This document shows positions 12,001-24,000 of a DNA stretch of 64,000 nt, piece by piece. The DNA lies in assembly GCA_043797085.1 (NCBI GenBank), contig JAZDQA010000006.1, positions 96,001 to 160,000 on the forward strand, written 5' to 3'. Each line of letters starts with the position of its first letter. Within the stretch, counting starts at the first letter, position 1. The position numbers were made by a program. Source of the DNA: Pseudomonadota bacterium. GTDB taxonomy: Bacteria; Campylobacterota; Campylobacteria; Campylobacterales; Sulfurimonadaceae.

Positions 12001-15000
12001 GATAAAAATGCTTTAACTTCGTCAAAATAGCGTTCAAATTGATCGAAGCGGTGATTTCCACCTTCTTCAATAATCATCTTTGCCCCATCATAATGGTTTT
12101 TTGCCACAGTATGATCGAGTATTTCATCCCCAGTTTGCAGAAAGATACAATAATTTTTAGTGTTTGGTTGTTTAACGATATAGGGGCAAAAATCATTGAT
12201 GTCGCTTTCGTTCCAGATAAAAATACTGCCATCGTCTCGGGTGTTTTTTCCTAGGTAGCGACGTGTTGTTTCGTAGGGAGCAATAGAAGGGTTGATTAGA
12301 ACCGTTTTGATGTTATGGCACTCACTGAGATATGAAGCGTAAAATCCACCTAATGAGCTGGCAATAATCCCCGTAATGGAATGTTTTTTGATGAGCATTT
12401 CCAAGTCTTCGATAGCCTCTGCCGGAGAAACCCGAAAATCGGCAATTACAATAGTGTCATTAAAATGTTTTTTAAGTATGTTGGCTTTAGACGATTGAGC
12501 TGTTGTTCTAAATCCATGGATATAAAGAATCACGTCGTAACCTTTCTGCAAAAAGACAAATTATAGTCTTTTCACTATCTAATTATCAAGGAAAATGCTA
12601 TTTGACACGGTACTTTTCTACAATACGTCTGATTACTTCATCGGCAATTTGTTCTTGAATCCCCATGTCTAAATGGCTGAAAAAACCGACACACGAGCAG
12701 TTTATCTCACCTAGCACATAGGTATCATTTCCATCATCATCGTTGTCGAGCATAAAATCACCTGTCCAGAGAATGGGCGGTTCCTTGATTTTGCCCAGTT
12801 TACTTGAGATGAGGGGGATGGAGTCAACAAATTTATTTATCAATTTAGGATAAGCATCGGGAGAATAATAGGTGTAATGCGCTCCCGAACCGATTGTGGC
12901 TGAAAATGCATCTGCATGATCTGCTGGTTTTTTATGGACGACAAATATAGGCTTGTTACCTATCATTAAAATGCGAATTTCTCCTTCCGTAATACGAGGA
13001 AGAAATCGCATATCAACCAGCATCCCATTTTTCCCCTTGATGTATTGCTTGCAAAAACGGATAAAGTTACCCAGAGAGTGATATTCTACATGATTATCAA
13101 ATGCTTCGGTACATTTTACGACTGTTTCTTCAGGAATTGCCTCGCCCGCTTTGTACTCGATATGATTATCAGTTACTTCGACTTTCCAGATACCTGAACC
13201 TGTAGACCCACGATTTTGTTTAAGTACACGCGGTCCATAAGAAAGGGTTTTCGGAAATATCTTTTTGAACTCTTTGTAAGTGTAATACGCGTAAGTATCA
13301 TCGGGAACCAAATCAGTATTGGCGAGTTTTGAGAGGACATCTTTGGAGCCGAAACGCATCATGGTCGTAGGGTGTGTCATTACCAGTACGTCTTTTTTAC
13401 TGAGTTTATTTAACATATCAAAGAGTTTATTTTCGCCGTTTGGAAGATTTCCAGGATTAATTCTGGTAATAACAGCATCGGCACGTTCAAGAATATAAGA
13501 ATAAAGCTCATCAACCCACTCATCTCGAAAATAGATTACTTCAGCAGTAAATCCTTTTTCAATCAATGCTTCGATAATAGGCATCGTATCGCGTCAATGT
13601 CCATTGATCCATTTATCTGACCCGCCTTCAGCTTCGATAATTATGATGTGTTTTTTCATGCACTACTCCTATGGGATGTGGAAGTGTACATAGTAAAGAT
13701 TATAGATTGGTTGCAAAGAAAAATATTGTTGGAACGGTAAAACAAAAAGTGCGCAAGATCAGTTTAGCCCTCTTGCGTTATTATATCATTTAGGTTAATT
13801 TCAGCAGTGCCTATAGTTTAATCAATCAATACGAATACAACTTGCTACAATGGTAAAAATTAAAATTTTAAAGAGTCTTTATGAGTGAAATATCCAATTT
13901 ATGCGACGTTATTATTTTCGGAGGGCATGGTGATTTAGCATTTCGAAAGCTCATGCCTGCGTTGTATCATCTTTGTAATGACGGACACATTAACGAGCAC
14001 AGTCGTATTTTTTCCACAACCCGTGCCAATATGACCCAAGAAGAGCACCTTGAACTGGTCAAAACAAAATTAAAAGAATTTTTAGCCCAAGAGCAATTTG
14101 ATGAGGCAAAATTTGAGAATTTTAAAGCACGCCTGCATCTGGTTAAAGTAGATCTGGGTAATGTTGAAAGTTACGAGGAACTCAGCCATCTTCTTGGAGA
14201 AAATCCTCAACGAGAACGAATCAGCTATCTCTCTACCTCTCCTGATTTTTTCGGAACGATTTGTAAAGCCTTAAGCACGTGGAGACTTGTCAGCCCTCAA
14301 AGTCGTGTCGTTTTGGAAAAACCGATCGGGCGGGATCTTGTCTCTTCGCGTGCCATCAATGTGGAAGTGCTCAAATATTTCGACGAGTCCCAAGTCTACC
14401 GCATCGACCACTATTTAGGAAAAGATACCGTTCAAAACATTATGGCGTTACGTTTTTCCAACCGTATTTTCACCCCTTTATGGGATGCGAGCAACATTGA
14501 CCATGTCGAAATCACGGTCTCCGAAAGTGTCGGGGTTGAAGGGCGTTGGGGATATTATGATGAGTACGGTGCAATGCGCGATATGATTCAAAATCATCTG
14601 ATGCAGCTGCTGTGCCTCATCGCTATGGAACCCCCGTGTTCTTTGGATGCGGACAGTGTACGGGATGAAAAAGTAAAAGTACTCAAATCCCTGCGCCCTA
14701 TGAGTGCCGCGGATATCCAGCAAAAAACCGTTCGCGCCCAATATTCAAAAGGCTCCAGTAACGGTCAAATCGTCCCCGGATACAAAGAGGGGGAGGGTGT
14801 CGCAAACAGTACGACCGAAACCTATGCCGCCGTTCGTGTCGACATCGACAACTGGCGTTGGAACGGTGTGCCGTTCTATCTACGTAGCGGAAAACGTCTG
14901 CGCAACAGAAACTCTGAAATCATTATTCAGTTTAAATCAATCCCTTACTCGATTTTTGCCAACAAAGGCAGCTGTATTTCGCAAAACAAACTGGTCATCA

Positions 15001-21000: not shown

Positions 21001-24000
21001 AGGGGATGATTAGCAGACTGACTCAAAAATTTTATAAAAATGTGTGGTATCTGCTACGCCAATGCAACGGGCTTGTCATAGGCGACAAGTACAATCTGAA
21101 CAGCCGCATAGGAAGTGAACTCACCTTGGACTCAACCGCAGGAGAACAAAGCTTCGCCCACAAAATTGAAGACCTCTTACAAAGCATTGAAGCTCCCGAG
21201 TATCGCCAGCTCAATATAGAAGCGATTGAAAGCCTCTCTAAACTCTTTAAACACTCGCCGGAACTTCATGTTGATGATGATTTGGTCTTGGATGTACTCA
21301 TCGGGCATGCTGTGAGGATTGGGTGGACACACCATCATCCTTATGAAGAAAATTATGATGAAGTACGCGCTCAGGCATGGGACAGGATATACCAGTGTTC
21401 ACCCGAAAAAACGGCAGAGCTCTTTGTTGAAGCGTTTATCTATTTATTAGCTCCACAGTCAAAGGAAAAATGATGATACTAGCCGGCGATATAGGGGGGA
21501 CAAAAACGATTTTAGCCCTCTTTGAGATTTATGAAAATATCTTAACACTCCACTCCAAACATCAGTTTGCAAGTAAAGATTACGATAGTTTTAACGATGT
21601 ACTGTTGGAATTTATCCGATTAAATACCAATCCTGCGATTGACGCGGCGTGTTTTGGCATAGCAGGACCGATTATCGATGAAAAATGTCACACCACTAAT
21701 CTCCCATGGGAAATCGCAGCAACAGATCTTAGAGCGCTCCTTAACACCCCTCATGTTCGTCTTTTAAATGATCTTGAAACCACTGCCTATGGGATGCTCT
21801 ATCTCAACGAAGATGAATTTGTCGATCTAAACCCTGATGCGCCTGTATCCCATGGCAATTATGCTGTTATCGCTGCGGGTACAGGTTTAGGTGAGGCAAT
21901 GCTCTTTTTTGACGGAACATCCTATCATCCCAGTGGTTCAGAGGGAGGACATTGTGACTTTGCCCCTTTAACCTCGCAGCAAGATTCCCTTTTGCAGTGG
22001 TTGAGACAGCGCTTCAACGATCATGTAAGCTATGAGCGTATTTTGTCCGGTCCGGGGATTGCAACCTTGTACGATTTTTTACTCGAAAGTAATTTTGCCC
22101 CTCCTCCCCATCAGATGACCAATCTAAGCGAAACGGATGATCGAAGCGCCCATATCAGTCAATGCGCACTCGAGCACCATGATCCGCTGTGCATCGAAAC
22201 ACTTCGTTTATTTACCGAAATATACGCGGCAGAAGCTGGAAATTTAGCCCTAAAATCAATGTCGCTTGGAGGAGTTTATATCGGTGGAGGCATCGCCCCT
22301 AAAATTTTGCCTTTTATTCAAAGTGACATCTTTATGAACGCCTTTACAGCAAAAGGACGATTTGAACCGATGCTGCGAAAGATGAAAGTCAGGGTTTCTT
22401 TAAATCCCGAAACAGCCCTTTTGGGTGCTGCTCATTTTGCACAAGATTGTAAGTTTCCATTATAGATCAAATTGAGCTTATTCTCATACAGAAGTCTCAG
22501 TTCTTCTTCGGATTTTTCCAATACATGAAGTTGTGAGCATAGCAGAAAATGTTAGGCTCAACGACTGGAGGAAGGTAAAAGATAGCCCTTTGTGTTAATC
22601 AAAATTTTTAATTAGCATTCTCTCTTCTTCCAATGTAAGGTAACGCCACTGACCGATTTCAATGTCGAGTTTAAAACTGCCAATACTGATTCGGTTCAAG
22701 TCTAAGACCTTTAATGGCGTCCCAAATTTCGGGTCTTTCAGCGCCCCAAAAAGCCGACGGATATGCCGATTCTTTCCCTCGTCAATTACAACCTTGAGTT
22801 TTGTTTTCGCGCCACCAATGCTTATCTTTTCGACTTCAAGAGCTTTTAGTAGACCGTGTGGGCTTTGGACGCCTTTCAAAGACTGCGCAATATGGTCGTC
22901 TGTTACGTGGCCTCTGACCCAAATCTCGTATACCTTAATACAATTCCCAGGTTTGGTCAATGCATCGCCGATTTTACCGTTAGTTGTGAATAATAGAAGC
23001 CCTTTAGATTCTAGATCAAGGCGTCCAATTGGCATCCATTCATCATAAAAAACCCAGTCAGGCAAAAGATCATAAACTGTTTTTCGCCCAAGTTCGTCAG
23101 ATCGTGTGACCACGTAACCCTTAGGCTTATTGAGTACTAATAGTTTTTTCGAATAGGGCGTTGTTTGATTCATTGTGTCTGTCCTTGAGTAGTTGATATT
23201 TTACTGGCTTGACACAGAATTTCTAACGCTCCCATTTTGATTAATACAACTGAGATCATTCAACTCATTTTAGCATTACATCAAAATTATCAAGATCCAA
23301 TAGTGTCATAGCTTTGTGGTGAAATTTTATACCCTATTTTTGAATAGCATTGAATAAAATCTTTTGGCAGTTTTTGTCGTATTCTAAACATCAATGATCG
23401 AAAAGCACCTTCTCCGACTAACTCCCCATCCCAAACAAAATCTTCAATTTGTTCTACGCTAACAACTTTTCCCAAGTATTTTATGAGTAGTTTAAGGAGT
23501 TTTTTTTCTTTATCATTCAAATCGCATTCTTTGCCATTAAGCATTAAAGTAAAATTCTCATTATCATAGATATAGCCATTGTGCAAATTAATCAAACGCA
23601 TCTTCGATTGTTTGTCTATGTCTAGTTTACTTTGAAGAGATATGTTTTCACTCTTGATTTCGATGATTGTTGATGCTAATTTCTTGTTTTCGGTAAATGT
23701 TTTTAATGCAATTTCCACAGCAGTTTTTAATTCAATTTCTTTAAATGGCTTAAGAATATAGCCATAAGGTTTTATATTGATAGCTCGGTCGATGGTCTTA
23801 CTTTTATCATTAGCCGTTAAAAAAACAATGGGGACAGAGAGCATTGCAGATATTTTTTCGGCAACTTCAATCCCATCCTCTCTGTCTTGCAGGGTGATGT
23901 CCATAAGAACAAGATCTGGAATTTTTGTACTTGCAAGATGCAGTGCTTTAGCACTGTTATTGGCGATCCCTACGACTTCGTACCCAAAGTCGATTAATAT

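What a model noticed while it worked through the whole genome (the two positions that open the first line are those of the whole stretch)
13881..22465. Full-length bacterial homolog of the animal phosphorylase-kinase alpha/beta regulatory subunit, with both catalytic glut [...]
g00789 (995 aa) matches the alpha subunit of animal phosphorylase kinase from end to end, 46 in 100 residues identical over the first 617, and keeps the two glutamates of the glucoamylase-like active site; it sits between the Entner-Doudoroff genes zwf-pgl-edd-eda and glucokinase, about 10 kb from the glycogen synthesis and phosphorylase genes. I read it as the free-living, enzymatically active form of this protein: a glucose-releasing hydrolase of glycogen-derived glucans that feeds glucokinase. 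Human PhK-alpha has the same intact site but no activity on any substrate tried, so this small bacterial operon offers a way to find what that site does and where the kinase's giant regulatory subun [...]
Evidence so far: swissprot.tsv: 33.6 percent over 1172 columns to Takifugu PHKA2 (query 10-935, subject 11-1169 of 1229, E 6e-180); 46 percent over 617 aa to rabbit, human and mouse PHKA1. pfam.tsv: Glyco_hydro_15 13-748 (7e-77), KPBB_C 762-993 (8e-78). phmmer against PDB: human PhK alpha 8jfk_M E 2e-196 in three stretches (12-619, 649-792, 824-921 of the query against 13-621, 820-964, 1046-1138), beta 8jfk_B 4e-163; in the printed alignment human Glu185 (GIWERG) and Glu371 (LLPELY) face identical motifs, Glu187 and Glu372 here. 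The 2024 structure paper says D1-alpha has an intact site with Glu185/Glu371 yet no activity on maltose, isomaltose or glycogen and that its meaning is open (PMC10978961, passages, c [...]
(Added by a program. Inside this text positions count along the whole contig: contig position 96,001 is position 1 of the stretch shown here. "Call 12" and the like, gene names such as g00115 and contig names such as C1 are that model's own, and its searches are not shown. The text may have been shortened before it was handed on; [...] marks where a part breaks off. The agent that wrote the report below was given it as the finding of a first reader that could run no searches.)

Follow-up and report, generated by a model that had tools for sequence, protein, structure and literature searches.

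The report
Bacterial phosphorylase-kinase-like GH15 hydrolase beside glucokinase
A sulfur-oxidising bacterium encodes a full-length relative of the big regulatory subunits of animal phosphorylase kinase, with its sugar-cutting site intact and always paired with glucokinase, so it is probably a working glucose-releasing enzyme that could show what the silent site in the human protein once did.

Summary
Window 18486-21473 (+) encodes a 995-aa protein with Pfam GH15 + KPBB_C. It matches human PhK alpha (E 2e-196) and beta (E 4e-163) end to end, and its model superposes on alpha over 914 residues (Z 59). Both glutamates (E187, E372) are invariant in 64 of 64 bacterial relatives examined.

The conserved partner is glucokinase, not the Entner-Doudoroff genes. 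glk lies directly downstream in 40 of 41 evaluable Campylobacterota loci and 8 of 11 Pseudomonadota loci, but in 0 of 14 cyanobacterial loci. Among 41 related genomes, the same 9 carry both genes. Glycogen genes often flank the pair.

My reading is a cytoplasmic glucose-releasing hydrolase of storage-glucan breakdown that feeds glucokinase. This is inferred; activity is untested.

The family is widespread (281 genomic matches) and already labelled in databases. I found no paper that discusses it. This scan reached the same reading before, on another genome.

Bacterial and eukaryotic members form two separate clans. This rules out a recent transfer from animals, but the rooting tests did not resolve which domain had the gene first.

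It is a new member of a known, uncharacterised kind, useful as a tractable route to the open question of PhK alpha's active site.

The parts
13881..15344 (+). zwf, glucose-6-phosphate dehydrogenase (487 aa), first gene of the operon
   Evidence: Pfam G6PD_C 3.9e-121, G6PD_N 2.1e-55
15316..16017 (+). pgl, 6-phosphogluconolactonase (233 aa)
   Evidence: Pfam Glucosamine_iso 1.5e-54
16014..17843 (+). edd, 6-phosphogluconate dehydratase (609 aa)
   Evidence: Pfam ILVD_EDD_N 6.5e-97, ILV_EDD_C 3.1e-50
17840..18463 (+). eda, KDPG aldolase (207 aa)
   Evidence: Pfam Aldolase 4.3e-72
18486..21473 (+). GH15 + KPBB_C protein (995 aa, P0001), full-length homologue of PhK alpha/beta; no N-terminal signal-like stretch, no CaaX end
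   Evidence: AF2 model pLDDT 90, pTM 0.89; PhK alpha Z 59.1 over 914 residues
18492..19745 (+). D1, the (alpha/alpha)6 GH15-type catalytic barrel (residues 3-420)
   Evidence: VIA-align: 5z3b Z 32.4 (345 aligned, model 3-419), 1lf6_A Z 29.9, 1ug9 Z 27.2, 3eqa_A Z 24.6
19044..19046 (+). codon GAA of Glu187 (GIWERG), aligned with human alpha Glu185
   Evidence: E in 64 of 64 bacterial sequences
19599..19601 (+). codon GAA of Glu372 (LLPELY), aligned with human alpha Glu371
   Evidence: E in 64 of 64 bacterial sequences
19803..20345 (+). D2-like alpha/beta region (residues about 440-620), followed by a short linker; here about 67 residues shorter than in most family members
   Evidence: secondary structure and pLDDT dip at 631-636; 41 residues at 615-655 versus 104-119 in 29 of 32 members
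20403..20900 (+). D4-like domain (residues 640-805)
   Evidence: aligned with alpha 820-964; homologous to D5 by hhalign, probability 96.5%, E 9.4e-10
20943..21461 (+). D5-like domain (residues 820-992), inside Pfam KPBB_C
   Evidence: aligned with alpha 1046-1138; Pfam KPBB_C 762-993; hhalign
21470..21473 (+). ATGA overlap: start codon of glk overlaps the stop codon of the GH15 gene; AAGGAAAA lies just upstream
   Evidence: sequence read directly
21470..22465 (+). glk, glucokinase (331 aa), the conserved partner gene
   Evidence: Pfam Glucokinase 7.6e-101; TIGR00749 254.6 bits, over its cut-off of 225.45; synteny
761..8295 (-). part of the glycogen gene cluster: GalT-like (761-1762), GH57 4-alpha-glucanotransferase/amylase type (1755-3785), GH57 (3794-5803), NTP-transferase/phosphoglucomutase fusion (5785-8295)
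   Evidence: Pfam, NCBIfam
70..759 (-). match to the starch/glycogen synthase domain (second glgA-like gene; the cluster continues before the window with glgA, glgB, pgi and an alpha-glucan phosphorylase)
   Evidence: G000:C6:96070-96759; L089 genes; phosphorylase TIGR02094 443.6 bits

Best explanation
The gene encodes a cytoplasmic, catalytically active GH15-type exo-glucosidase built on the same five-domain frame (D1-D5) as PhK alpha/beta. It releases free glucose from storage-glucan breakdown products, such as malto-oligosaccharides, limit dextrin or branch stubs of glycogen. The glucose is phosphorylated at once by the translationally coupled glucokinase. In this genome the glucose-6-phosphate then enters the Entner-Doudoroff genes of the same operon.

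Shown here: homology and fold, conservation of the site, and the gene pairing and co-occurrence with glk. Inferred: hydrolytic activity, the substrate, and the role of D2-D5. D2-D5 may bind glucan or mediate self-association, as D5 does in PhK beta.
For: Homology and fold. PhK alpha scores E 2e-196 and beta 4e-163. The model has pLDDT 90. Its whole-chain match to alpha is Z 59.1 over 914 residues, and to beta Z 49.7 at rmsd 2.5 over 777 residues. D1 matches solved GH15 enzymes at Z 24-32.

Active site. W48, R50, D51, W186, E187, R188 and E372 are invariant in 32 named bacterial members from three phyla. E187 and E372 are E in 64 of 64 bacterial, 6 of 6 fungal and 2 of 2 basal sequences. Beta representatives, which the structure paper calls catalytically incomplete, carry K at 372 in 4 of 5.

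Synteny. glk lies directly downstream on the same strand in 40 of 41 evaluable Campylobacterota loci, 8 of 11 Pseudomonadota loci and 2 of 2 unclassified loci. This holds whether ED genes lie upstream, downstream or are not in reach. There is a 4-base ATGA overlap here.

Co-occurrence. KPBB_C and Glucokinase occur in the same 9 of 41 related genomes, adjacent each time, and in none of the other 32. All 9 have glycogen synthase.

Glycogen context. Glycogen genes occur in 17 of 49 Campylobacterota loci. One Sulfurimonadaceae locus reads gap-pgi-glgP-pgk-GH15-glk. This genome's own glycogen cluster lies 10-25 kb away.

No rival glucose source of the usual kind. No GH77 MalQ and no second GH15 were found in the genome.

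Precedent. A review reports a catabolic GH15 glucoamylase mutant of Sulfolobus with a glycogen phenotype in line with a catabolic role (passages of PMC11046441).

Weak hint of expression. 12 contigs at least 99% identical to the operon, one of them inside this gene, occur in one metatranscriptomic library.
Against: No enzyme of this subfamily has been assayed. Human alpha keeps the same two glutamates yet showed no activity on maltose, isomaltose or glycogen, so intact residues do not guarantee activity.

Sequence profiles of the family hit no classical GH15 in the PDB even at E up to 10, so substrate specificity cannot be transferred.

Cyanobacterial members have no adjacent glk (0 of 14) and no conserved neighbours.

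21 of the 41 related genomes have glycogen synthase but neither gene, so the enzyme is an accessory and not needed for glycogen turnover.

In an even draw of 151 genomes of the order, glk occurs without the GH15 gene in 5 genomes. One genome has the GH15 gene, cut by a contig end, with no glk found.

The GH57 4-alpha-glucanotransferase of the glycogen cluster could also release glucose.

A simple hydrolase role leaves about 550 conserved non-catalytic residues (D2-D5) unexplained.

Presence in an RNA library does not prove transcription.
Confidence: 0.68

Rival explanations
1. It is an active GH15 hydrolase, but of a small alpha-glucoside and not of glycogen products. Candidates are trehalose, kojibiose, nigerose or a glucosyl compatible solute. 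Glucokinase would again salvage the glucose.
For: GH15 includes trehalases. The only NCBIfam hit is archaeal trehalase TreH1 (E 9.7e-05, 21.2 bits). The closest solved GH15 fold is a small 371-residue 'Glycosidase' (5z3a-f, Z 32), not a polymer-active glucoamylase. Pairing with glk fits any glucose-releasing enzyme. Cyanobacterial copies show no glycogen context.
Against: The TreH1 score is far below its cut-off of 820 bits. No trehalose-6-phosphate synthase was found in this genome. The one extra GH13 gene scores below the TreZ and GlgB cut-offs. Flanking genes, where informative, are glycogen or glycolysis genes: glgP, pgi, glgA, glgB, GalT-like. All 9 carriers among the relatives have glycogen synthase.
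Confidence: 0.17
2. It is not an enzyme. It is a glucan-binding scaffold or regulator, as in phosphorylase kinase. It might tether or control glucokinase, phosphorylase or another partner on the glycogen particle.
For: Animal homologues are regulatory, and human alpha was inactive in vitro. D2-D5 are conserved in bacteria with many invariant residues (W832, R836, G840, W854, E887, E912, R944, W965 and others). In PhK, D5 docks the kinase or dimerises (section 7 of PMC10978961). The gene is always next to a kinase gene, though a sugar kinase.
Against: The catalytic glutamates and surrounding residues are strictly conserved across three bacterial phyla, while the non-catalytic beta lineage lost the base residue. 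No protein kinase gene is adjacent here; the two Pkinase matches lie elsewhere in the genome. The two cyanobacterial loci with a downstream Ser/Thr kinase carry unrelated kinases, 28% identical.
Confidence: 0.1
3. The gene is a recent acquisition from a eukaryote, or eukaryotic contamination of the assembly, with no settled bacterial role.
For: The N-terminal 600 residues are 44-47% identical to animal alpha representatives.
Against: It is more similar to bacterial members: 46-70% overall, and 55.7-57.4% over residues 12-619 to the three bacterial sequences compared. It sits in a bacterial operon with overlapping genes. In three trees the eukaryotic sequences form one clan (support 99-100) and this protein lies deep in a Campylobacterota clade on the bacterial side. 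The same gene pair is present in 8 other genomes of the genus.
Confidence: 0.02

Closest known systems
Phosphorylase kinase regulatory subunit alpha (human PHKA1; PDB 8jfk, 8jfl, 8z5m, 8z5r)
   Same: The same five-domain chain from end to end: E 2e-196, Z 59.1 over 914 residues. Identity to animal alpha-clade representatives is 44-47% over residues 12-619 and 22-25% over 640-995. Both glutamates named as catalytic in the structure paper are present.
   Different: There is no counterpart of alpha 622-819 and 965-1045, the inserts between the aligned stretches. There is no CaaX end. No gamma-type kinase or calmodulin gene is adjacent. Several positions invariant in bacteria and fungi (Y44, H303, Q304, N396, N398) are replaced in animal alpha. 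It is encoded in a sugar-catabolic operon with glucokinase.
Phosphorylase kinase regulatory subunit beta (human PHKB; PDB 8jfk_B, 8z5t_B)
   Same: The same architecture: E 4e-163, Z 49.7 with rmsd 2.5 over 777 residues.
   Different: Beta representatives have lost the residue aligned with E372 (K in 4 of 5). The bacterial protein keeps it. Beta forms the beta4 core of the kinase through D5. Self-association of the bacterial protein was not tested.
Fungal 'phosphorylase kinase alphabeta' proteins of early-diverging fungi (Rozella, Blastocladiella, Chytridium, Parasitella, Linderina, Ramicandelaber)
   Same: Single-copy eukaryotic members that keep both glutamates (6 of 6) and the other bacterial-type site residues. 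Identity over residues 12-619 is 47.5-49.1% in the three compared.
   Different: They are longer (1,322-1,686 aa) and belong to the eukaryotic clan in all trees. Function is also untested, as far as my searches show.
Solved GH15 enzymes: 5z3a-f/7c24 'Glycosidase', bacterial glucoamylase 1lf6, glucodextranase 1ug9, dextran dextrinase 9ju0, fungal glucoamylases 1gah/3eqa. I recall 5z3a-f as Kribbella flavida isomaltose glucohydrolase; that name comes from no call.
   Same: D1 (residues 3-420) has the same (alpha/alpha)6 barrel: Z 32.4, 29.9, 27.2, 27.6 and 24. Pfam PF00723 is met.
   Different: Identity is only 12-18%. Neither the single sequence nor the family profile finds them by sequence. 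They lack D2-D5, and many carry an N-terminal beta-sandwich or starch-binding domains instead.
Intracellular GH15 glucoamylase of archaeal glycogen catabolism (Sulfolobus acidocaldarius; review PMC11046441, passages only)
   Same: It gives a precedent for a GH15 enzyme acting in storage-glycogen breakdown alongside GH57 enzymes and a phosphorylase. Gene content is similar here.
   Different: It is a classical GH15 without the PhK-type C-terminal domains. The review's held text (first 300,000 characters) never mentions phosphorylase kinase.

Membership tests
Glycoside hydrolase family 15 (CAZy GH15; Pfam PF00723) | Match to the family model above its curated cut-off | tested here: met
   PF00723 256.7 bits against a cut-off of 22, residues 13-748; it is the only such match in the genome
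Glycoside hydrolase family 15 (CAZy GH15; Pfam PF00723) | (alpha/alpha)6-barrel catalytic domain | tested here: met
   Model residues 3-420 align with solved GH15 enzymes at Z 24-32, rmsd 3.1-4.3, 340-358 residues; Foldseek E 1.4e-09 to 1e-04
Glycoside hydrolase family 15 (CAZy GH15; Pfam PF00723) | Two catalytic glutamates (general acid and general base) | tested here: met
   E187 and E372 align with human alpha Glu185/Glu371, which the structure paper names as the catalytic pair after superposition on 5Z3F. They are invariant in 64 of 64 bacterial sequences. Residue-level superposition on a classical GH15 was not available to me.
Glycoside hydrolase family 15 (CAZy GH15; Pfam PF00723) | Inverting hydrolysis of an alpha-glucosidic bond with release of beta-glucose | not testable with these tools
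   This needs an enzyme assay. Human alpha was negative on three substrates.
Phosphorylase kinase alpha/beta family (GH15-like D1 + KPBB_C; JGI name 'phosphorylase kinase alpha/beta subunit') | KPBB_C domain above cut-off and the five-domain D1-D5 chain | tested here: met
   PF19292 265.3 bits against a cut-off of 27. Whole-chain structural match to alpha, model 1-994 to chain 2-1217, Z 59.1. D4 and D5 are mutually homologous, as in PhK.
Phosphorylase kinase holoenzyme regulatory subunit (functional sense) | Partnership with a gamma catalytic protein kinase and calmodulin | tested here: not met
   No protein kinase gene is in the operon or its flanks. The two Pkinase matches in the genome lie at C6:1044-1685 and C5:67500-68159, far from the gene. 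Physical binding is not testable here.
Phosphorylase kinase holoenzyme regulatory subunit (functional sense) | Regulatory insert regions of alpha/beta and the C-terminal CaaX farnesylation motif | tested here: not met
   Alpha 622-819 and 965-1045 have no aligned counterpart. The protein ends ...PQSKEK. By my reading of the printed ends, none of 40 bacterial ORFs ends in CaaX, while representatives in the animal clades and one fungal (Rozella) representative do.
GH15 trehalase (NCBIfam NF041084 TreH1) | Score above the equivalog cut-off | tested here: not met
   21.2 bits against a cut-off of 820

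The most novel reading that the evidence does not exclude
The bacterial GH15+KPBB_C proteins are the original, enzymatically active form of the PhK alpha/beta frame. On this reading, a glycogen-catabolic glucosidase, complete with its duplicated D4/D5 domains, was passed between bacteria and an early opisthokont. It was later recruited there as the scaffold of phosphorylase kinase. The beta line lost the catalytic base, and the alpha line changed several otherwise invariant site residues.

If so, the natural substrate of the bacterial enzyme identifies what the 'intact but silent' site of human alpha still binds. That substrate could be, for example, phosphorylase-limit dextrin or single glucose branch stubs, which were not among the three substrates tried on the human protein.
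Probability: 0.3. Interest if true: 0.8.

Novelty: new member of a known kind. Interest (0 to 1): 0.55.

Why it matters
The glucoamylase-like domain of phosphorylase kinase has been a puzzle since it was recognised. The 2024 human structure shows an apparently complete active site in alpha, found no activity on three substrates, and says that its meaning is open.

The bacterial relatives give a tractable handle on this. They are a single soluble chain of about 1,000 residues with an invariant site, a fixed partnership with glucokinase, and carriers that include genetically tractable cyanobacteria. Synechococcus elongatus carries the domain in the control set.

Finding their substrate would add a missing glucose-releasing step to glycogen breakdown in sulfur-oxidising autotrophs and cyanobacteria. 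It would also give a concrete ligand to test on the human protein, whose mutations cause glycogen storage disease. It would show too how a metabolic enzyme became a kinase scaffold.

Tried and rejected
(1) Complex prediction of the non-catalytic part (residues 440-995, alignment A1) with glucokinase (alignment A3). Verdict: no support (score 0.00, mark 0.32).

(2) Outgroup rooting with classical GH15 was abandoned. The family profile finds no classical GH15 chain in the PDB even at E up to 10, so an alignment would be unreliable.

(3) Rooting by the internal D4/D5 duplication. In a quick tree of 164 rows and 143 columns the root fell among bacterial rows in both halves. AU tests on a 66-row subset did not reject holding all bacterial rows together: p-AU 0.778 for D4 and 0.703 for D5. 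The constrained trees were 11.3 and 7.5 log-likelihood units better than the free quick tree. I therefore withdrew the reading 'eukaryotes nested in bacteria'. The same test on 164 rows did not finish.

(4) The sister relation of eukaryotes and cyanobacteria seen with FastTree (96) was not recovered as a supported branch with IQ-TREE under LG+G4 or under the site-heterogeneous model (open node, support 42).

(5) The idea that the enzyme replaces a missing debranching enzyme. GlgX over cut-off was found in 0 of 25 genomes of the genus and GDE_C in 0 of 41 genomes. They are missing in carriers and non-carriers alike, so there is no complementary pattern. The idea is neither supported nor excluded.

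(6) Promoter and terminator scans of 13400-22800 gave no more sites than shuffles.

(7) Ser/Thr kinase genes lie downstream in 2 of 12 cyanobacterial loci. The kinases are only 28% identical and sister loci lack them, so this is chance.

(8) Literature. Searches found no paper on bacterial PhK-like GH15 proteins. Pallen 2003 (PMC2323967) is not held, and Carriere 2008 was not seen. An earlier remark on bacterial homologues may therefore exist there. The supplementary figures of PMC10978961 were not seen.

(9) RNA runs X2, X3 and X9 hold only relatives (90-99% alike) or next to nothing, so I drew no conclusion on expression.

Full report
WHAT IS THERE. On the + strand of the window lie six tightly packed genes: zwf (13881-15344), pgl (15316-16017), edd (16014-17843), eda (17840-18463), a 995-aa ORF (18486-21473) and glk (21470-22465). 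The 995-aa protein (P0001) carries Pfam Glyco_hydro_15 (13-748, 5.1e-76) and KPBB_C (762-993, 4.8e-79). GIWERG and LLPELY align with the human motifs, so E187 (GAA, 19044-19046) and E372 (GAA, 19599-19601) face human Glu185 and Glu371. The structure paper names these two as the catalytic pair of an 'intact' site that was nevertheless inactive on maltose, isomaltose and glycogen (passages and section 7 of PMC10978961). Identity to five animal alpha-clade representatives is 43.8-46.7% over residues 12-619 and 22-25% over 640-995.

STRUCTURE. An AlphaFold2 model built on an 82-sequence alignment has mean pLDDT 90.0 and pTM 0.89.
- It superposes on PhK alpha over the whole chain: Foldseek E 2.3e-71 with TM 0.74/0.75, and VIA-align Z 59.1 with 914 residues aligned, model 1-994 to chain 2-1217.
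- It superposes on beta at Z 49.7, rmsd 2.5 over 777 residues.
- Residues 3-420 form the (alpha/alpha)6 barrel of GH15 enzymes: 5z3a-f/7c24 at Z about 32, bacterial glucoamylase 1lf6 at 29.9, glucodextranase 1ug9 at 27.2, fungal glucoamylases at about 24. Identity is only 12-18%. Neither the single sequence nor the family profile finds any classical GH15 chain by sequence, the profile even at E up to 10.
- The two C-terminal domains (about 640-805 and 820-992) are homologous to each other (hhalign probability 96.5%, E 9.4e-10, 143 columns). The paper reports the same for D4 and D5 of the human subunits.
- The parts of alpha between the aligned stretches (622-819 and 965-1045) have no counterpart.
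- The protein ends ...PQSKEK without a CaaX motif.
- The N-terminus shows no signal-like hydrophobic stretch (read directly), so I take the protein to be cytoplasmic.
- This copy is about 67 residues shorter than most relatives between residues 615 and 655. It has 41 residues there against 104-119 in 29 of 32 members. Two other Campylobacterota copies share the short form.

HOW COMMON IT IS. The word-index search scored 8,000 candidates, and 7,181 had E at or below 0.001. The 120 listed all carry both Pfam domains. Where named, they are 'glycoside hydrolase family 15 protein' of Sulfuricurvum, Sulfurimonas, Sulfurovum or Campylobacterota, or JGI's 'phosphorylase kinase alpha/beta subunit'.

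In one genome per GTDB species, 281 stretches encode a relative. By the ranks of their record titles, the best 80 are 49 Campylobacterota, 12 Pseudomonadota, 17 Cyanobacteriota and 2 unclassified. The exhaustive search of 50%-identity representatives gave 2,247 proteins at E up to 0.001, 1,085 at 1e-10 and 323 at 1e-30. Cluster look-ups added Reinekea, Marinomonas, Plasticicumulans, Niveispirillum and Caulobacterales. On the eukaryotic side they added early-diverging fungi ('phosphorylase kinase alphabeta'), an ichthyosporean and a ctenophore.

The distribution is patchy. The domain is in 9 of 25 genomes of the window's genus, in 0 of 16 other families of the order in the first draw, and in 3 of 151 genomes in an even draw of the order. 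The window's genome is a 2.4-Mb Sulfuricurvum-like assembly. The nearest records, 93-95% identical, are Sulfuricurvum MAGs.

WHAT TRAVELS WITH IT. I searched the 80 loci with the window's own proteins.
- glk lies immediately downstream on the same strand in 40 of 41 Campylobacterota loci that have at least 1,200 bases downstream. The same holds in 8 of 11 Pseudomonadota loci and 2 of 2 unclassified loci, but in 0 of 14 cyanobacterial loci.
- The exceptions are L075, L017, L061 and L066.
- The Entner-Doudoroff genes are upstream in Sulfuricurvum-type loci, downstream in Sulfurovum-type loci, on the other strand in one locus, and out of reach in most. They are present in 18 of 49 Campylobacterota loci.
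- Glycogen genes (glgA, glgB, glgP, pgi, GalT-like, GH57, the NTP-transferase/PGM fusion) are present in 17 of 49.
- One Sulfurimonadaceae locus reads gap-pgi-glgP-pgk-GH15-glk, with phosphoglucomutase divergent upstream.
- In the window the stop codon of the GH15 gene overlaps the start codon of glk (ATGA) behind AAGGAAAA.

Across 41 related genomes, KPBB_C and Glucokinase occur in exactly the same nine (G000, G002, G004, G011, G012, G018, G019, G021, G024). They are adjacent each time, and the other 32 have neither. All nine have glycogen synthase, but so do 21 genomes without the pair. zwf is in seven of the nine. It was not found in G011 (99% complete) or in G019 (84% complete).

In the even draw of 151 genomes the link is looser. 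Two genomes have both genes. Five have a strong glk match only; four of these belong to one genus of small genomes. One (G158) has the GH15 gene cut by a contig end, with no glk within 5.4 kb or elsewhere. So the GH15 gene nearly always brings glk, but glk does not need it. Relatives are not independent, so these counts describe a pattern and are not a test.

Cyanobacterial neighbours are unrelated to sugar metabolism and are not conserved.

THE SITE. In 32 named bacterial sequences, W48, R50, D51, W186, E187, R188, R297, D301, E327, W330, P371, E372 and W403 are among the invariant residues. In the 82-sequence alignment:
- E187 and E372 are glutamate in 64 of 64 bacterial, 6 of 6 fungal and 2 of 2 basal eukaryotic sequences.
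- Animal alpha representatives have E187 in 5 of 5, and E372 as E in 3 and Q in 2.
- Beta representatives have E187 in 4 of 5, and K at 372 in 4 of 5. This fits the paper's remark that D1-beta lacks catalytic residues.
- Y44, H303, Q304, N396 and N398 are invariant or nearly so in bacteria and fungi but replaced in animal alpha and beta. I could not check whether they line the pocket.

THE REST OF THE PATHWAY HERE. The glycogen cluster on the minus strand holds a GalT-like gene, two GH57 genes (one of the 4-alpha-glucanotransferase/amylase type) and an NTP-transferase/phosphoglucomutase fusion, all inside the window. Just before the window it holds two glgA, glgB, pgi and an alpha-glucan phosphorylase (TIGR02094, 443.6 bits). 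The genome shows no GH77 MalQ, no OtsA and no second GH15. The genus shows no GlgX over cut-off (0 of 25), and the 41 genomes show no GDE_C.

MOST LIKELY MECHANISM. The enzyme is a cytoplasmic exo-acting GH15 hydrolase. It removes glucose from products of glycogen breakdown. Glucokinase, made from the same message, traps the glucose as glucose-6-phosphate. Here the Entner-Doudoroff enzymes of the same operon carry it on. The steps shown are homology, fold, site conservation and gene linkage. The steps inferred are catalysis, the substrate and co-transcription. A review gives a precedent for a catabolic GH15 glucoamylase in archaeal glycogen turnover (passages of PMC11046441). The role of D2-D5 is open. 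I give this reading 0.68.

The rivals are a hydrolase of a small alpha-glucoside such as trehalose (0.17), a non-catalytic glucan-binding scaffold (0.10) and a recent eukaryotic import (0.02).

ORIGIN.
- FastTree (122 rows) put a eukaryotic clade (support 99) beside cyanobacteria (96) inside bacterial diversity under a midpoint root.
- IQ-TREE under LG+G4 (63 rows) and under a site-heterogeneous model (40 rows) kept the eukaryotes as one clan (100). They also kept a Pseudomonadota-plus-Campylobacterota clan (96-98). The node joining eukaryotes, cyanobacteria and two unnamed lineages stayed unresolved.
- The Campylobacterota copies sit within gamma- and beta-proteobacterial rows. This suggests that the pair spread among sulfur oxidisers.
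- A root inferred from the D4/D5 duplication fell among bacteria in a quick tree. AU tests did not reject bacterial monophyly: p 0.778 and 0.703, with the constrained trees scoring better than the free ones.

I therefore state only three things. The whole five-domain frame, including the D4/D5 duplication, predates the split of the bacterial and eukaryotic clans. This gene is not a recent import from animals. The direction of the old transfer is open.

EXPRESSION. One groundwater metatranscriptomic library (X1) holds 12 contigs at least 99% identical to the operon, including 19820-20052 inside the GH15 gene and 22112-22443 in glk. The tool warns that such libraries can hold DNA. This is a weak hint only.

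KNOWN OR NEW. The family is labelled in Pfam-based annotation and by JGI. This scan noted the same kind of gene before on another genome, with the same reading (e1-3058229). I re-tested its claims here.

Full-text searches found no paper that discusses bacterial members. The searches were: phosphorylase kinase with glucoamylase, GH15 and bacterial; with cyanobacteria; with Sulfurimonas; with glucoamylase-like and prokaryot; K07190; and GH15 with cyanobacteri and glycogen. Pallen 2003 is not held and Carriere 2008 was not seen, so a remark there cannot be excluded.

I class the finding as a new member of a known but uncharacterised kind. Its value lies in making the question of the PhK alpha site testable with a simple bacterial enzyme.

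Noticed in passing
window 33403-64000: This looks like an integrated mobile or defence island. It holds SIR2 (33403-34347), a phage-type integrase (34689-36038), a WYL/WCX regulator (37105-37980) and several ORFs without any Pfam match. A low-GC stretch (25-30% GC at 44-50 kb) holds an AAA_23 ATPase, a trypsin-like peptidase and a metallo-beta-lactamase-fold protein. There is also a type I restriction-modification set (HsdR 50577-53522, RhuM-family 53519-54499, HsdS, HsdM 55772-58120), Rad52-like, DUF932 and DUF5906 genes.
   Followed up: partly
window 70-8295 (-) and G000:C6:89048-96000 (L089): This is a non-classical glycogen cluster. It has two tandem glgA-like genes, a GalT-like gene, two GH57 genes and an 836-aa NTP-transferase/phosphoglucomutase fusion in place of a canonical GlgC (best glgC score 137 bits against a cut-off of 425). 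glgB, pgi and a short (549 aa) alpha-glucan phosphorylase follow.
   Followed up: partly
genus and order of the window's genome (G000-G040): No GlgX over its cut-off was found in 25 genomes of the genus, and no GDE_C in 41 genomes, although 30 of 41 have glycogen synthase. How these bacteria debranch glycogen is not evident.
   Followed up: partly
P0001 residues 44, 46, 303, 304, 396, 398 (alignment A2): These positions are invariant or nearly so in 64 bacterial and 6 fungal sequences but replaced in animal alpha and beta representatives (for example H303 to Y, N398 to R/K/E). They are candidates for why human alpha is inactive despite both glutamates. Their place in the pocket was not checked.
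   Followed up: no
L073:13449-14801 and L085:13885-15315: Two of 12 cyanobacterial loci have a Hanks-type Ser/Thr protein kinase gene directly downstream of the PhK-like gene. The two kinases are only 28% identical and sister loci lack them, so this looks like chance.
   Followed up: yes
window 20330-20450 (P0001 residues 615-655): This copy, and those of L038 and L040, lack about 67-80 residues that 29 of 32 family members carry between D2 and D4. In PhK this is the flexible D3 region.
   Followed up: partly
G011 (same genus, 99% complete): This genome carries the GH15-glk pair, but no glucose-6-phosphate dehydrogenase was found. The pair therefore does not depend on the Entner-Doudoroff route.
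   Followed up: no
window 12598-13584 (-): A Cj0069-family / DUF6815 protein (NF033816, 416.7 bits) with weak RimK-like similarity lies divergently upstream of zwf. Its function is unknown.
   Followed up: no
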